Positions 8,171 through 14,531 of a DNA stretch of 64,000 nt are shown here, piece by piece. Made by a program: the position numbers and the translations under genes. Position 1 is the first letter of the stretch. Every line of letters starts with the position of its first letter. Below the pieces are notes generated by a model, which was given only the letters and a program-made list of their open reading frames with translations, searched no databases and was not told the origin of the DNA. The stretch comes from the human T2T-CHM13v2.0 reference genome, Homo sapiens. The stretch lies in NCBI RefSeq assembly GCF_009914755.1, contig NC_060936.1; one strand, written 5' to 3'.

Positions 8171-8187
8171 AGATTTGGAATATTTTC
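8171..8187 (+). repeat. Target-site duplication, left copy: AGATTTGGAATATTTTC
   Basis: Identical 17-mer at 14515-14531. Adjacent to the T14 tail at 8188-8201. Confidence 0.93.
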
Positions 8188-8482
8188 TTTTTTTTTTTTT
8201 TAACCAATGCATGAGTTTTAATTGGATGCTAGTTTCAGAGGGAAAACATCTTTTTTTTTAATTGTTAATTTATTATTATTATACTTTAAGTTTTAGGGTA
8301 CATGTGCACAATGTGCACGTTACTTACATATGTATACATGTGCCATGCTGGTACGCTGCAACCACTAACTCGTCATCTAGCATTAGGTATATCTCCCAGT
8401 GCTATCCCTCCCCCCTCCCCCCAACCCACAACAGTCCCCAGAGTGTGATGTTCCCCCTCCTGTGTCCATGTGTTCTCATTGT

Positions 8483-11400
8483 TCAATTCCCACCTATGAG
8501 TGAGAATATGCGGTGTTTGGTTTTTTGTTCTTGTGATAGTTTACTGAGAATGATGATTTCCAATTTCATCCATGTCCCTACAAAGGACATGAACTCATCA
8601 TTTTTTATGGCTGCATAGTATTCCATGGTGTATATGTGCCACATTTTCTTAATCCAGTCTATCATTGATGGACCTTTGGGTTGGTTCCAAGTCTTTGCTG
8701 TTGTGAATAATGACACAATAAACATACATGTGCATGTGTCTTTATAGCAGCATGATTTATAGTCCTTTGGGTATATACCCAGTAATGGGATGGCTGGATC
8801 AAATGGTATTTCTAGTTCTAGATCCCTGAGGAATCGCCACACTGACTTCCACAATGGTTGAACTAGTTTACAGTCCCACCAACAGTGTAAAAGTGTTCCT
8901 ATTTCTCCACATCCTCTCCAGCACCTGTTGTTTCCTGACTTTTTAATGATTGCCATTCTAACTGGTGTGAGATGGTATCTCATTGTGGTTTTGATTTGCA
9001 TTTCTTTGATGGCCAGTGATGGTGAGCATTTTTTCATGTGTTTTTTGGCTGCATAAATGTCTTCTTTTGAGAAGTGTCTGTTCATGTCCTTTGCCTACTT
9101 TTTGATGGGGTTGCTTGTTTTTTTCTTGTAAATTTGTTTGAGTTCATTGTAGATTCTGGATATTAGCCCTTTGTCAGATGAGTAGGTTGCGAAAATTTTC
9201 TCCCATTCTGTAGGTTGCCTGTTCACTCTGATGGTAGTTTCTTTTGCTGTGTAGAAGCTCTTTAGTTTAATGAGATCCCATTTGTCAATTGTGGCTTTTG
9301 TTGCCATTGCTTTTGGTGTTTTAGACATGAAGTCCTTGCCCGTGCCTATGTCCTGAATGGTAATGCCTAGGTTTTCTTCTAGGGTTTTTATGGTTTTAGG
9401 TCTAACGTTTAAGTCTTTAATCCATCTTGAATTGATTTTTGTATAAGGTGTAAGGAAGGGATCCAGTTTCAGCTTTCTACATATGGCTAGCCAGTTTTCC
9501 CAGCACCATTTATTAAATAGGGAATCCTTTCCCCATTGCTTGTTTTTCTCAGGTTTGTCAAAGACCAGATAGTTGTAGATATGCAGCATTATTTCTGAGG
9601 GCTCTGTTCTGTTCCATTGATCTATATCTCTGTTTTGGTACCAGTACCATGCTCTTTTGGTTACTGTAGCCTTGTAGTATAGTTTGAAGTCAGGTAGCAT
9701 GATGCCTCCAGCTTTGTTCTTTTGGCTTAGGATTGACTTGGCGATGTGGGCTCTTTTTTGGTTCCATATGAACTTTAAAGTAGTTTTTTCCAATTCTGTG
9801 AAGAAAGTCATTGGTAGCTTGATGGGGATGGCATTGAATCTGTAAATTACCTTGGGCAGTATGGCCATTTTCATGATATTGATTCTTCCTACCCATGAGC
9901 ATGGAATGTTCTTCCATGTGTTTGTATCCTCTTTTATTTCATTGAGCAGTGGTTTGTAGTTCTCCTTGAAGAGGTCCTTCAGATCCCTTGTAAGTTGGAT
10001 TCCTAGGTATTTTATTCTCTTTGAAGCAATTGTGAATGGGAGTTCACTCATGATTTGGCTCTCTGTTTGTCTGTTGTTGTTGTATAAGAATGCTTGTGAT
10101 TTTTGTACATTGATTTTGTATCCTGAGACTTTGCTGAAGTTGCTTATCAGCTTAAGGAGATTTTGGGCTGAGACAATGGGGTTTTCTAGATATACAATCA
10201 TGTTGTCTGCAAACAGGGACAATTTGACTTCCTCTTTTCCTAATTGAATACCCTTTATTTCCTTCTCCTGCCTAATTGCCCTGGCCAGAACTTCCAACAC
10301 TATGTTGAATAGGAGTGGTGAGAGAGGGCATCCCTGTCTTGTGCCAGTTTTCAAAGGGAATGCTTCCAGTTTTTGCCCATTCAGTATGATATTGGCTATG
10401 GGTCTGTCATAGATAGCTCTTATTATTTTGAAGTACGTCCCATCAATACCTAATTTATTGAAAGTTTTTAGCATGAAGAGTTGTTGAATTTTGTCAAAGG
10501 CCTTTTCTGCATCTATTGAGACAATCATGTGGTTTTTGTCTTTGGTTCTATTTATATGCTGGATTACATTTATTGATTTGCATATATTGAACCAGCCTTG
10601 CATCCCAGGGATGAAGCCCACTTGATCATGGTGGATAAGCTTTTTGATGTGCTGCTGGATTCGTTTTGCCAGTATTTTATTGAGGATTTTTGCATCAATG
10701 TTCATCAAGGATATTGGTCTAAAATTCTCTTTTTTGGTTGTGTCTCTGCCAGGCTTTGGTATCAGGATGATGCTGGCCTCATAAATGAGTTAGGGAGGAT
10801 TCCCTCTTTTTCTATTGATTGGAATAGTTTCAGAAGGAATGGTACCAGTTCCTCCTTGTACCTCTGGTAGAATTCGGCTGTGAATCCATCTGGTCCCGGA
10901 CTCTTTTTGGTTGGTAAGCTATTGATTATTGCCACAATTTCAGATCCTGTTATTGGTCTATTCAGAGATTCAACTTCTTCCTGGTTTAGTCTTGGGAGAG
11001 TGTTTGTGTCGAGGCATTTATCCATTTCTTCTAGATTTTCTAGTTTATTTGCATAGAGGTGTTTGTAATATTCTCTGATGGTAGTTTGTATTTCTGTGGG
11101 ATTGGTGGTGATATCCCCTTTATCATCTTTTATTGCATCTATTTGATTCTTTTCTCTTTTTTTCTTTATTAGTCTTGCTAGCGGTCTATCAATTTTGTTG
11201 ATCCTTTCAAAAAACCAGCTCCTGGATTCATTAATTTTTTGAAGGGTTTTTTGTGTCTCTATGTCCTTCAGTTCTGCTCTGATTTTAGTTATTTCTTGCC
11301 TTCTGCTAGCTTTTGAATGTGTTTGCTGTTGCTTTTCTAGTTCTTTTAATTGTGATGTTAGGGTGTCAATTTTGGATCTTTCCTGCTTTCTCTTGTGGGC

Positions 11401-12309
11401 ATTTAGTGCTATAAATTTGCCTCTACACACTGCTTTGAATGCGTCCCAGAGATTCTGGTATGTTGTGTCTTTGTTCTTGTTGGTTTCAAAGAACACCTTT
11501 ATTTCTGCCTTCATTGTGTTATGTACCCAGTAGTCATTCAGGAGCAGGTTGTTCAGTTTCCATGTAGTTGAGTGGTTTTGAGTGAGATTCTTAATCCTGA
11601 GTTCTAGTTTGATTGCACTGTGGTCTGAGAGATAGTTTGTTATAATTTCTGTTCTTTTACATTTGCTGAGGAGAGCTTTACTTCCAAGTATGTGGTCCGT
11701 TTTGGAATAGGTGTGGTGTGGTGCTGAAAAAAATGTATATTCTGTCGATTTGGGGTGGAGAGTTCTGTAGATGTCTATTAGGTCCGCTTGGTGCAGAGCT
11801 GAGTTCAATTCCTGGGTATCCTTGTTGACTTTCTGTCTCGTTGATCTGTCTAATGTTGACAGTGGGGTGTTAAAGTCTCCCATTATTAATGTGTGGGAGT
11901 CTAAGTCTCTTTGTAGGTCACTCAGGACTTGCTTTATGAATCTGGGTGCTCCTGTATTGGGTGCATATATATTTAGGATAGTTAGCTCTTCTTGTTGAAT
12001 TGATCCCTTTACCATTATGTAATGGCCTTCTTTGTCTCTTTTGATCTTTGTTGGTTGAAAGTCTGTTTTATCAGAGACTAGGATTGCAACCCCTGCCTTT
12101 TTTTGTTTTCCATTTGCTTGGTAGATCTTCTTCCATCCCTTTATTTTGAGCCTATGTTTGTCTCTGCACGTGAGATGGGTTTCCTGAATACAGCACACTG
12201 ATGGGTCTTGACTCTTTATCCAATTTGCCAGTCTGTGTCTTTTAATTGGAGCATTTAGTCCATTTACATTTAAAGTTAATATTGTTATGTGTGAATTTGA
12301 TCCTGTCAT
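8483..12309 (-). pseudogene. L1 ORF2p (endonuclease / RT / Cys-rich), inactivated
   Basis: Three ORF pieces (12309-10762, 10708-9095, 9085-8483). 1-nt deletion near 10783-85, TGG>TAG at 9095-97, and the RT motif FADD reads FADN (10202-04). Confidence 0.93.
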
Positions 12310-12372
12310 TATGATGTTAGCTGGTGATTTTGCTTATTAGTTGATGCAGTTTCTTCCTAGTCTCGATGGTCT

Positions 12373-13386: not shown

Positions 13387-14282
13387 CTTTGTGGTTTTAT
13401 CTACTTTTGGTCTTTGATGATGGTGATGTACAGATGGGTTTTTGGTATGGATGTCCTTTCTGTTTGTTAGTTTTCCTTCTAACAGACAGGACCCTCAGCT
13501 GCAGGTCTGTTGGAGTACCCGGCCGTGTGAGGTGTCAGTCTGCCCCTGCTAGGGGGTGCCTCCCAGTTAGGCTGCTCGGGGGGTCAGCAGTCAGGGACCC
13601 ACTTGAGGAGGCAGTCTGCCCGTTCTCAGATCTCCAGCTGCGTGCTGGGAGAACCACTGCTCTCTTCAAAGCTGTCAGACAGGGACACTTAAGTCTGTAG
13701 AGGTTACTGCTGTCTTTTTGTTTGTCTGTGCCCTGCCCCCAGAGGTGGAGCCTACAGAGGCAGGCAGGCCTCCTTGAGCTGTGGTGGGCTCCACCCAGTT
13801 CCAGCTTCCCTGCTGCTTTGTTTACCTAAGCAAGCCTGGGCAATGGTGGACGCCCCTCCCCCAGCCTCGCTGCCGCCTTGCAGTTTGATCTCAGACTGCT
13901 GTGCTAGCAATCAGCGAGACTCCGTGGGCGTAGGACCCTCCGAGCCAGGTGCGGGACACAATCTCCTGGTGTGCTGTTTTTTAAGCCCGTCGGAAAAGCA
14001 CAGTATTCGGGTGGGAGTGACCCGATCTTCCAGGTGCCGTCTGTCACCCCTTTCTTTGACAAGGAAAGGGAACTCCCTGACCCCCTGCGCTTCCCGAGTG
14101 AGGCAATGCCTCGCCCTGCTTTGGCTCGTGCACGGTGCGTGCACCCACTGACCTGCGCCCACTGTCTGGCACTTCCTAGTGAGATGAACCCGGTACCTCA
14201 GATGGAAATGCAGAAATCACCCGTCTTCTGCATCGCTCACACTGGGAGCTGTAGACCGGAGCTGTTCCTATTCGGCCATCTT
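13387..14282. promoter_or_regulatory. L1 5' UTR bidirectional promoter (sense on -, antisense promoter on +)
   Basis: CpG-rich L1 5' UTR with YY1 core AAGATGGCCG at about 14273-14282 on the - strand. Promoter function is established for L1PA 5' UTRs generally. Confidence 0.7.
13843..14151 (+). CDS. L1 antisense ORF0, open (102 aa unspliced) with two splice donors
   Basis: GCAATGG start. MVDAPPPASLPPCSLISDCCASNQRDSVGVGPSEPG... matches primate L1 ORF0. Donors CCAG|GTGCGG after 13948 and CCAG|GTGCCG after 14033. Expression at this copy is unknown. Confidence 0.7.
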   Translation: MVDAPPPASLPPCSLISDCCASNQRDSVGVGPSEPGAGHNLLVCCFLSPSEKHSIRVGVTRSSRCRLSPLSLTRKGNSLTPCASRVRQCLALLWLVHGACTH

Positions 14283-14427
14283 CTTCACTTACTTTTTCAA
14301 TCCTTTGTTTCTTTATCAAATTATAGCTTCTTAGCATCAGAAAATTTTTGCCTGAAACAGTGACTTCTTTTTTAGAAATGGAGCTCTGAGTTCGATCTAA
14401 GTCTTAAAGTAATAAGGTTCACGCATC

Positions 14428-14514
14428 AATGCAGAAATCACCCGTCTTCTGCATCGCTCATGCTGGGAGCTGTAGACCGGAGCTGTTCCTATTTGGCCAT
14501 CTTGGCTCCTCTCC
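14428..14514 (-). mobile_element. Second copy of the first ~87 nt of the L1 5' UTR
   Basis: Near-identical to 14207-14282 plus the GGAGAGGAGCC tip. Directly abuts the TSD. Confidence 0.92.
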
Positions 14515-14531
14515 AGATTTGGAATATTTTC
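14515..14531 (+). repeat. Target-site duplication, right copy
   Basis: Identical to 8171-8187. TTTTC/AA context resembles an L1 endonuclease site. Confidence 0.93.

What the first reader, a model, noticed from the sequence alone, without database searches (positions are those of the whole stretch)
8171..14531. Composite L1 insertion with a duplicated 5' tip and captured DNA at both ends inside one TSD
Seen, reading the - strand: TSD (14531-14515), L1 nt ~1-87 (14514-14428), 145 bp non-L1 DNA (14427-14283), full L1 lacking its first ~10 nt (14282-8260), A9, 49 bp non-L1 DNA (8250-8202), A14, TSD (8187-8171). The perfect 17-bp TSD encloses everything. The break in the outer 5' tip falls about 10 nt short of the known L1 5' UTR splice donor (GAG|GTACC), so ordinary splicing does not explain it. 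Both tips share one departure from consensus as I recall it (TCTGCATCGC) but differ at two other CpG sites. Inference: either a source lineage with a tandem 5' start carrying both a 5' and a 3' transduction, or an RT template jump, or a full L1 landing inside a small earlier retrocopy.
Basis: partly seen in the sequence, partly recalled or inferred. Interest (0 to 1): 0.75.

Follow-up and report, generated by a model that had tools for sequence, protein, structure and literature searches.

The report
L1 element patched from neighbouring L1
A dead full-length L1 retrotransposon in a TRHDE intron carries a repeat of its own first bases plus 145 bases that are really the flank of another L1 120 kb away, most likely because a DNA break in it was mended with that neighbour as template; it is a curiosity that mimics a 5' transduction.

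Summary
A perfect 17-bp TSD encloses L1 nt 1-87, 145 bp of non-L1 DNA, an L1 starting at nt 12, A9, 49 bp of non-L1 DNA and A14.

Searching the window's own genome (T2T-CHM13) identifies both foreign pieces.
- **The 145 bp** has one other copy, 119,890 bp away on the same strand of chr12. There it is the native 5' flank of another full-length L1 ("L1-B"), including L1-B's own 13-bp TSD and its truncated start.
- **The 49 bp** is unique DNA from chr15:60.1 Mb. It begins at an endonuclease-like site and has an ATTAAA signal near its end, but no L1 lies beside it in this genome. This fits a 3' transduction from a source that was not kept.

The body of the window's L1 is not a plain copy of L1-B. 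It shares rare variants with L1-B, including an ORF1 stop codon. It also carries lineage markers of a different L1 clade that L1-B lacks, finely interleaved with the shared variants.

Best reading (about 0.6): an ordinary L1 insertion with a 3' transduction was later repaired from nearby L1-B. The repair ran into L1-B's flank and was sealed at a 2-nt microhomology. The main rival (about 0.2) is a one-step reverse-transcriptase template-switching event. Ape orthologues would decide between them.

The parts
14515..14531 (-). 5' target-site duplication, GAAAATATTCCAAATCT
   Evidence: 17 of 17 identical to 8171-8187 (family D12).
14428..14514 (-). Outer L1 5' tip, L1 nt 1-87. It includes the first 11 nt (GGAGAGGAGCC) that L1-B and the inner L1 lack. 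The last 2 nt (TT, 14429-14428) are a junction microhomology.
   Evidence: Its 5' end looks like the full-length ends of the panel copies. The BLAST alignment to the L1-B locus starts 2 nt inside the tip.
14283..14427 (-). 145-bp copy of the native 5' flank of L1-B (chr12:72496393-72496537 of the same assembly).
   Evidence: One other copy in the genome, 142 of 145 identical. At the source the sequence continues upstream as unique DNA with no L1 tip.
14286..14298 (-). Copy of L1-B's own 13-bp TSD (GAAAAAGTAAGTG), carried inside the 145 bp.
   Evidence: The same 13-mer flanks L1-B on both sides, at chr12:72496408-72496396 and 72490363-72490351. This shows that the transfer ran from the L1-B locus to the window.
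14207..14282 (-). Inner L1 tip, nt 12-87, contiguous with the captured flank. It starts at the same base as L1-B.
   Evidence: family D1. It has 3 of 76 mismatches to the outer tip and 7 of 76 to L1-B, mostly at CpG.
8260..14282 (-). L1 body, about 6.02 kb, with both reading frames broken. It is a mosaic of L1-B-like rare variants and alleles of another L1 clade.
   Evidence: ORFs are fragmented: 248 aa, then 515, 536 and 200 aa. The mosaic rests.
13191..13191 (-). G>T change that makes an in-frame ORF1 stop (GAA>TAA), shared with L1-B.
   Evidence: The exact 32-mer occurs 7 times in the whole genome, this L1 and L1-B included.
8251..8259 (-). A9, the remnant of the L1 poly(A). Its last 3 A are also present at the chr15 source.
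   Evidence: The chr15 match covers AAA plus the 49 bp, 52 nt at 100%.
8202..8250 (-). 49 bp of unique chr15 DNA (chr15:60109255-60109306 with the AAA). ATTAAA lies at 8222-8217, 15 nt before the A14.
   Evidence: At chr15 the segment is preceded by TCTT|AAAG. No young L1 lies within the 10 kb fetched.
8188..8201 (-). A14, the terminal poly(A) tail.
8171..8187 (-). 3' target-site duplication.
   Evidence: family D12.

Best explanation
There were two events.

**Event 1 (inferred): an ordinary insertion.** A full-length L1, called A0 here, inserted by target-primed reverse transcription and made the 17-bp TSD. Its RNA came from a source L1 at chr15:60.1 Mb. Transcription read through that L1's own poly(A) site and ended 49 nt downstream at an ATTAAA signal, giving a 3' transduction. 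The source L1 is not present in CHM13.

**Event 2 (inferred mechanism; the origin of the sequence is shown): repair from a neighbour.**
- A break or collapsed fork near nt 87 of A0 was repaired with L1-B as an ectopic template. L1-B is a similar L1 120 kb away on the same strand.
- Copying ran across L1-B's nt 12-87 and 145 bp of L1-B's own flank.
- One junction is hidden in L1 homology. The other was closed without homology at a TT microhomology.
- The result is a 221-bp templated insertion (145 + 76). It looks like a duplicated 5' tip plus a 5' transduction.
- Exchange with L1-B also left patches of L1-B variants in the first 4.3-4.6 kb of the body. This happened in the same event, through template switching or patchy mismatch repair, or in further conversions.

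The element is dead and has no function of its own.
For: **Shown**
- The 145 bp has exactly one other copy. It is the native flank of L1-B, with L1-B's TSD and identical truncated start, and it continues into unique DNA there.
- L1-B lies 119,890 bp away on the same strand. No other homology exists between the two loci.
- The outer tip holds 11 nt that L1-B lacks, so a second full-length L1 contributed.
- The junction has a 2-nt microhomology.

**The body is related to L1-B**
- The pair shares 9 variants exclusive among 22 aligned copies, the highest of 231 pairs.
- The ML tree places them as sisters with SH-aLRT 99.
- Two stretches that each hold two shared variants are 100% identical only in these two copies, among the 40 scored of 219 candidates and the 40 scored of 496.
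- Exhaustive counts of three of the shared variants give 7, 16 and 52 copies genome-wide. Only these two loci appear in all three lists.

**The body is not a plain copy of L1-B**
- The pair differs at 15 non-CpG sites where both alleles occur in at least 3 other copies. The mean over all pairs is 13.5; the sister pair L050/L056 has 3.
- The window's L1 carries all 5 markers of the clade L043/L044/L053 (positions 256, 595, 2144, 4585, 5859). L1-B carries 2 of them.
- L1-B-like and non-L1-B sites interleave.

**From established knowledge**
- Ectopic repair favours nearby templates in cis, whereas L1 insertion sites are not tied to the source. About 240 kb out of 3.1 Gb gives a chance near 1e-4 of landing this close.
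- Homology-started repair that ends by microhomology end joining, with template switching, is documented in mammalian cells (PMC5104497, passages read).
- Breaks in LINEs can be repaired from other LINEs (PMC7407515, passage citing Tremblay 2000).

**The 49 bp**
- It is a unique chr15 match. It begins at TCTT|AAAG and has ATTAAA 15 nt before its end.
Against: - No pre-event allele (A0 without the 221-bp block) has been seen. Ape genomes and other human haplotypes are not available here.
- The mosaic is very fine. I counted 13 runs among 27 informative sites by hand, against 14.3 expected at random. One event therefore needs many template switches or patchy mismatch repair, or several events are needed.
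- No long stretch of the pair is unusually identical, so timing cannot be read from the sequence.
- The reference panel is small: 20 full-length copies. It was chosen by likeness to this L1's first 983 nt. That biases markers 198, 256 and 326; only 2144, 4585 and 5859 are free of this bias.
- Marker patterns in the panel are partly reticulate in general. For example, L038 also carries 595G and 2144G.
- Overall A-B divergence (non-CpG 2.0% in the body, 3 of 145 in the flank) is equally compatible with a copy made from L1-B in one step.
- If the repair had simply copied L1-B, the inner tip should resemble L1-B. It is closer to the outer tip (3 against 7 mismatches of 76), although the differences are nearly all CpG decay.
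- The chr15 source L1 is absent.
Confidence: 0.6

Rival explanations
1. The composite formed in one step at the RNA level. Reverse transcriptase began on the RNA of an active helper L1 carrying the chr15 3' transduction. It then switched, possibly many times, between that RNA and a transcript of the defective L1-B that had started 145 nt upstream of L1-B. It ran off the 5' end of the L1-B transcript, jumped back to the helper RNA at nt 86-87 (TT) and finished at the cap.
For: - All parts are collinear inside one perfect TSD, with a clean A14.
- The L1-B-derived block starts in L1-B's flank, as a read-in transcript would.
- The mosaic body fits copy-choice between two templates.
- The start on the helper's own RNA respects cis preference, and explains how an RNA with an ORF1 stop was copied.
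- Template switching by the L1 enzyme, and insertions in which reverse transcription began on another RNA and switched to L1, are described (PMC13174262, passages and supplement row; PMC2104539, search listing only).
Against: - The donor lies only 119,890 bp from the insertion, on the same strand. An RNA-level event has no reason for that; the chance is about 1e-4.
- It needs a transcription start 145 bp upstream of L1-B and a jump from an RNA 5' end to an internal position of another RNA. It also needs about a dozen homologous switches, which is not documented for L1 as far as I know (recalled).
- It cannot change L1-B itself, yet L1-B carries 2 of the 5 markers of the other clade. This evidence is weak.
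Confidence: 0.2
2. The composite arose by serial transductions. L1-B was transcribed from 145 bp upstream and retrotransposed to chr15, giving a 5' transduction. That copy, now lost, read through into 49 bp of chr15 flank and retrotransposed to the window, giving a 3' transduction. The outer tip was added by a final template jump.
For: - The 145 bp is L1-B's 5' flank, and the 49 bp begins at an endonuclease-like site on chr15.
- Overall A-B divergence is uniform across the flank and the body.
Against: - Both rounds would have had to mobilise an RNA with an ORF1 stop in trans.
- The element would have returned by chance to within 120 kb of L1-B.
- The outer tip still needs an extra event.
- The body carries markers of another clade that L1-B lacks.
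- No other copy of either tag exists.
Confidence: 0.06
3. The 49 bp is not a 3' transduction. Reverse transcription began on the poly(A) tail of an unrelated chr15 transcript and switched after 49-52 nt to the poly(A) of the L1 RNA. This concerns the 3' end only and is compatible with either reading of the 5' end.
For: - No L1 lies beside the segment at chr15.
- The segment ends 15 nt after ATTAAA, like a real RNA 3' end.
- An AAA overlap exists at the junction.
- A comparable case is noted in PMC13174262, supplement file 5, row 14.
Against: - The upstream border at chr15 is TCTT|AAAG, which is what an L1 insertion site would look like.
- 3' transduction is common, and a polymorphic source that was lost is unremarkable (established knowledge).
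- I could not see gene annotation for chr15.
Confidence: 0.25

Closest known systems
Coupled homologous/non-homologous break repair: gene conversion that starts by homology and ends by microhomology end joining, with template switching (PMC5104497; Richardson and Jasin 2000, seen only as a cited reference)
   Same: - Invasion is driven by homology (L1 with L1).
- Copying ran past the end of the homology into the donor's flank.
- Closure was at a 2-nt microhomology.
- Template switches are a possible cause of the mosaic tract.
   Different: - The known cases come from reporter constructs in cultured cells, mostly with the sister chromatid as donor.
- Here the event is a germline, fixed, roughly 10-million-year-old one between two dispersed L1s 120 kb apart.
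- The mechanism here is inferred from the product only.
Ectopic gene conversion between LINE-1 copies (Tremblay, Jasin and Chartrand 2000, as cited in PMC7407515)
   Same: - One L1 is repaired from another L1.
- Rare variants are shared in patches, including an inactivating stop.
   Different: - Ordinary conversion stays inside the homology. Here the donor's unique flank and TSD were captured and 76 nt were duplicated.
L1 5' transduction (17 cases in hg38 in PMC13174262)
   Same: - Unique DNA identical to the 5' flank of another L1 lies upstream of an L1 inside the TSD.
   Different: - The captured DNA does not abut the TSD; an L1 tip lies in front of it.
- The donor is 120 kb away in cis and has an ORF1 stop.
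- The body is not a plain copy of the donor.
- This locus is not in that paper's table. Supplement file 5 has no L1 coordinate on chr12.
L1 3' transduction
   Same: - Unique DNA lies between the L1 poly(A) and a second poly(A), inside the TSD.
- The segment ends 15 nt after a poly(A) signal.
- The source border looks like an endonuclease site.
   Different: - No L1 is present at the source locus in this genome.
- No sibling insertion carries the tag.
Chimeric retrocopies made by RT template switching (U6/L1 and tripartite chimeras; PMC2104539, PMC13174262)
   Same: - Several collinear pieces from different templates lie inside one TSD.
   Different: - Known chimeras join a whole small RNA or an mRNA piece to a 5'-truncated L1.
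- Here the outer piece is the L1's own first 87 nt, and the middle piece is the genomic flank of a neighbouring L1.

Membership tests
L1 insertion by target-primed reverse transcription | Target-site duplication flanking the whole insert | tested here: met
   17 of 17 identical.
L1 insertion by target-primed reverse transcription | Terminal poly(A), and a T-rich nick site on the primed strand | tested here: met
   A14 at 8201-8188. The + strand reads ATATTTTC followed by the T-run. The match to the recalled TTTT/A consensus is near, not exact.
L1 3' transduction | Unique non-L1 DNA between the L1 poly(A) and a second poly(A), ending after a poly(A) signal | tested here: met
   A9, 49 bp with ATTAAA 15 nt before its end, then A14.
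L1 3' transduction | A progenitor L1 lies directly upstream of the tag at its source locus | tested here: not met
   At chr15:60109306 there is unique DNA. Only an old fragment of 70% identity lies 4.7 kb away on the other strand. This holds for CHM13 only; other haplotypes and apes were not testable.
L1 5' transduction | The tag equals the 5' flank of the source L1 and is contiguous with the L1 start | tested here: met
   142 of 145 identical, with the same junction and the same truncated start.
L1 5' transduction | The tag is the 5' end of the insert and abuts the TSD | tested here: not met
   87 nt of L1 tip lie between the TSD and the tag.
L1 5' transduction | The offspring body is a copy of the source element | tested here: inconclusive
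   Rare variants are shared. The body also differs at 15 lineage-polymorphic sites and carries the markers of another clade.
Ectopic templated repair / gene conversion between repeats | The donor is a homologous repeat, with the sequence transfer demonstrable | tested here: met
   The donor's unique flank and TSD are present in the recipient. The donor is 120 kb away in cis.
Ectopic templated repair / gene conversion between repeats | The recipient is a mosaic of its own and the donor's alleles | tested here: met
   The panel is small and was partly chosen by likeness to the recipient.
Ectopic templated repair / gene conversion between repeats | The pre-event allele exists or existed (the recipient without the patch) | not testable with these tools
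   No ape genome or other human genome is held.
Chimeric retrocopy by RT template switching | The 5' partner is a copy of a cellular RNA joined to a 5'-truncated L1 | tested here: not met
   The 5' partner is the L1's own nt 1-87, and the L1 behind the tag is nearly full length.

The most novel reading that the evidence does not exclude
The composite was made in a single retrotransposition by retrovirus-like copy-choice. The L1 reverse transcriptase alternated many times between its own RNA and a second, defective L1 RNA (L1-B's read-in transcript). It ran off that RNA's 5' end and jumped back to its own. This locus would then be a fossil record of frequent inter-template recombination during L1 reverse transcription, and of a way for dead L1s to pass on sequence without trans-complementation.
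Probability: 0.15. Interest if true: 0.7.

Novelty: new member of a known kind. Interest (0 to 1): 0.4.

Why it matters
Flanking tags are used to trace L1 source elements. This locus shows that a tag inside a TSD need not be a transduction. Repair from a neighbouring L1 can import that neighbour's flank and its TSD, and can copy inactivating mutations between elements.

It is a natural, germline-fixed example of homology-started repair that ended by end joining. That kind of repair is otherwise known mainly from reporter assays. The locus therefore gives a concrete case for testing, in ape genomes, how often dispersed L1s exchange sequence.

It has no evident bearing on TRHDE. The element is intronic, antisense and dead.

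Tried and rejected
**Readings rejected**
- **Splicing.** The break in the outer tip (CATT|TCCA) and the source border (ATGTT|GATG) have no donor or acceptor.
- **Local duplication of the inner tip.** The outer tip holds 11 nt that the inner tip and L1-B lack.
- **Nested insertion.** The inner unit has no TSD of its own.
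- **Segmental duplication.** The flanks of the two loci share nothing.
- **A foreign 3' end of the body.** An apparent excess of differences in the last 177 nt came from the A-rich tail only.

**Approaches that did not settle the question**
- Sliding divergence between the two L1s is flat and does not separate the models.
- Ranking L1-B among genome hits failed. Only 40 of 6591 candidates were scored, and L1-B was not among them.
- An L1 in chr15 alpha satellite (L057) shares the ORF1 stop and one other rare variant. It is 94.3% identical to both L1s and has its own TSD, so I take the sharing as recurrent mutation.

**Resources that were unavailable**
- Earlier findings were not open.
- Tremblay 2000 and Richardson and Jasin 2000 are not held. 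I know them only as cited.

**Literature searches**
- For LINE-1, gene conversion and 5' transduction together, one unrelated hit.
- For LINE-1, 5' transduction and template switching together, no hits.
- I found no description of this locus in print.

**Not tested**
- No subfamily name was tested. "L1PA3-like, about 12 million years" rests on 2.0-2.2% distance from the panel majority and on recalled rates.

Full report
**1. The observation**

On the - strand the window reads as follows:
- TSD GAAAATATTCCAAATCT at 14531-14515
- L1 nt 1-87 at 14514-14428
- 145 nt of non-L1 DNA at 14427-14283
- an L1 that begins AAGATGGCC at 14282 and runs to T8260
- A9 at 8259-8251
- 49 nt of non-L1 DNA at 8250-8202
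- A14 at 8201-8188
- the same 17-mer at 8187-8171

The two tips are a 76-nt direct repeat with 73 of 76 identical (family D1). The description is confirmed. The inner L1 lacks 11 nt rather than about 10.

**2. Where the two foreign pieces come from**

The window's own assembly can be searched. The window is chr12:72602001-72666000 of a 3.1-Gb, 24-contig genome.

*The 145 nt.*
- It has exactly one other match among 2 of 2 candidates scored: chr12:72496393-72496537, same strand, 98% identical, with 3 of 145 mismatches.
- There it lies directly upstream of another full-length L1, L1-B (chr12:72496392 down to about 72490364).
- Further upstream it continues into unique DNA, with no L1 tip.
- L1-B has its own 13-bp TSD, GAAAAAGTAAGTG, on both sides. 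Its 5' copy lies inside the 145 nt and is present in the window at 14298-14286.
- L1-B starts at the same base as the window's inner L1, with the same three extra bases.
- The block therefore came from the L1-B locus after L1-B had inserted. The direction of transfer is from L1-B to the window.
- The two copies are 119,890 bp apart. Outside the flank and the L1, the loci share nothing.
- The last two bases of the outer tip (TT) also precede the 145 nt at the source.

*The 49 nt.*
- Together with the three A in front of it, it matches chr15:60109255-60109306 at 100% over 52 nt. That is the only other match.
- At chr15 it is preceded by TCTT|AAAG and holds ATTAAA 15 nt before its end.
- No young L1 lies within the 10 kb fetched.
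- L1-B has no such tag.

**3. Is the body a copy of L1-B?**

Over 6,177 aligned nt the pair differs by 126 non-CpG substitutions, 83 CpG-type substitutions and 18 indel columns. The differences are spread evenly, and the rate in the flank is the same. This fits any model in which the event is old.

I aligned both L1s with 20 full-length copies (L037-L056). These came from the 40 best hits of 6591 candidates to the window L1's first 983 nt. That choice biases the panel towards the window's L1 in that region.

*Evidence for kinship.*
- The pair shares 9 variants found in no other row, the highest of 231 pairs. The next highest are 7, 6, 5, 5 and 5.
- Restricted to positions 1-6000, the count is 6, second to one pair with 7, against a mean of 0.9.
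- The ML tree joins the pair with SH-aLRT 99, on the longest inner branch of the tree, 0.0031.
- The shared variants lie at body positions 472 to 4342. They include a G>T that turns an ORF1 GAA into TAA.
- Genome-wide, a 62-nt and a 102-nt stretch that each hold two of the variants are 100% identical only in these two loci. This is among the 40 scored of 219 candidates and the 40 scored of 496.
- Exhaustive pattern counts give 7, 16 and 52 copies for three single variants. Only these two loci appear in all three lists.

*Evidence against a plain copy.*
- The pair differs at 15 non-CpG sites where both alleles occur in at least 3 other copies. That is as many as a random pair (mean 13.5). The sister pair L050/L056 has 3.
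- The clade L043/L044/L053 (SH-aLRT 96) has five markers present in all three members: 256, 595, 2144, 4585 and 5859. The window's L1 has all five; L1-B has 595 and 4585 only.
- Markers 2144, 4585 and 5859 lie outside the region used to choose the panel.
- Conversely, L1-B has the markers 1618 and 3851 of the group L041/L045/L050/L056, which the window's L1 lacks.

*Pattern along the element.*
- Sites of the two kinds interleave. By my hand count there are 13 runs among 27 sites, against 14.3 expected at random.
- The shared rare variants are mildly clustered (P = 0.03).
- None lies beyond position 4585.

The body is best read as a fine mosaic of L1-B and an L1 of another lineage.

**4. Mechanism**

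The outer tip holds 11 nt that L1-B lacks, so two L1 templates are required in any model. Two families of models remain.

*At the DNA level.*
- An ordinary insertion with a 3' transduction (A0) was later repaired from L1-B.
- Copying ran through L1-B's nt 12-87 and 145 bp of its flank.
- One junction is hidden in homology. The other was closed at TT.
- Template switching or patchy mismatch repair, in the same or in further events, would give the mosaic.

*At the RNA level.*
- The reverse transcriptase alternated between a helper RNA and a read-in transcript of L1-B.

I prefer the DNA level for three reasons.
- The donor is 120 kb away in cis. Repair explains this; retrotransposition does not (about 1e-4 by chance).
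- The shared ORF1 stop means that L1-B's RNA could not have supported its own copying.
- L1-B itself carries two markers of the other clade. This evidence is weak.

Repair that starts by homology and ends by microhomology end joining, with homology-mediated template switches, is described in mammalian cells (PMC5104497, passages). Repair of a broken LINE from other LINEs is also described (PMC7407515, passage).

Whether the product arose by strand invasion plus end joining or by a replicative template switch cannot be told. The inner tip is closer to the outer tip (3 of 76 mismatches) than to L1-B (7 of 76), and the two tips share a CpG T (4 of 29 panel copies). This would suit a replicative switch that returned to A0 inside the tip. 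CpG decay alone can also explain it.

**5. The 3' end**

Three features fit a 3' transduction from a source L1 that is not in CHM13:
- the endonuclease-like border
- the poly(A) signal
- the second poly(A)

The alternative is that reverse transcription started on a chr15 transcript. It remains possible, at about 0.25.

**6. State and age**

Both reading frames are broken. The window's L1 differs from the panel majority at 121 of 6028 sites, and L1-B at 134 of 6026. With recalled rates this suggests roughly 10-15 million years, so great-ape orthologues should be informative.

**7. Comparison and verdict**

The locus combines three known processes: target-primed insertion, 3' transduction and ectopic templated repair between repeats.
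- It fails one defining feature of a 5' transduction, because the tag does not abut the TSD.
- It fails one defining feature of a 3' transduction, because no source L1 is present in this genome.
- It is not in the list of 5' transduction L1s of PMC13174262 (supplement file 5), and I found no description of it.

It is a new instance of known kinds of event, of moderate interest. It serves as a natural record of L1-to-L1 repair and as a warning for source tracing by flanking tags.

Noticed in passing
window 13424-13971: The RefSeq 'enhancer' feature given in the hub's table lies wholly inside the L1 5' UTR and the start of ORF1 (body positions about 312-859). It is a property of L1 5' UTR sequence rather than of this locus.
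   Followed up: no
window 13191; genome-wide: The same G>T that makes an ORF1 stop (GTTGAAAAC to GTTTAAAAC) occurs in 7 L1 copies in the genome. Five of them are unrelated to this pair, so the change recurs at this site.
   Followed up: partly
L057 (chr15:14741300-14748600): A full-length L1 with its own TSD is embedded in what look to me like alpha-satellite repeats (recognised by eye in the flanks, no tool named them). It is 4% from the panel majority. It shares the ORF1 stop, 2955C and 4342T with the pair but none of the other shared variants.
   Followed up: partly
L037-L056 (panel of 20 L1 copies): Lineage markers in the panel are partly incompatible with one tree. For example, L038 of another clade carries 595G, 1957C and 2144G. 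Recurrent mutation or exchange between L1 lineages may be common.
   Followed up: no
L006 6995-9966 (chr15:60113994-60116965): An old L1 fragment, 70% identical to this L1, lies on the other strand 4.7 kb from the 49-bp source. It is unrelated to the tag.
   Followed up: no
window 14283-14298: The captured flank ends in AAAAAGTAAGTGAAG, which contains a consensus-like splice donor (GTAAGT). It is simply L1-B's target site and was not used.
   Followed up: no
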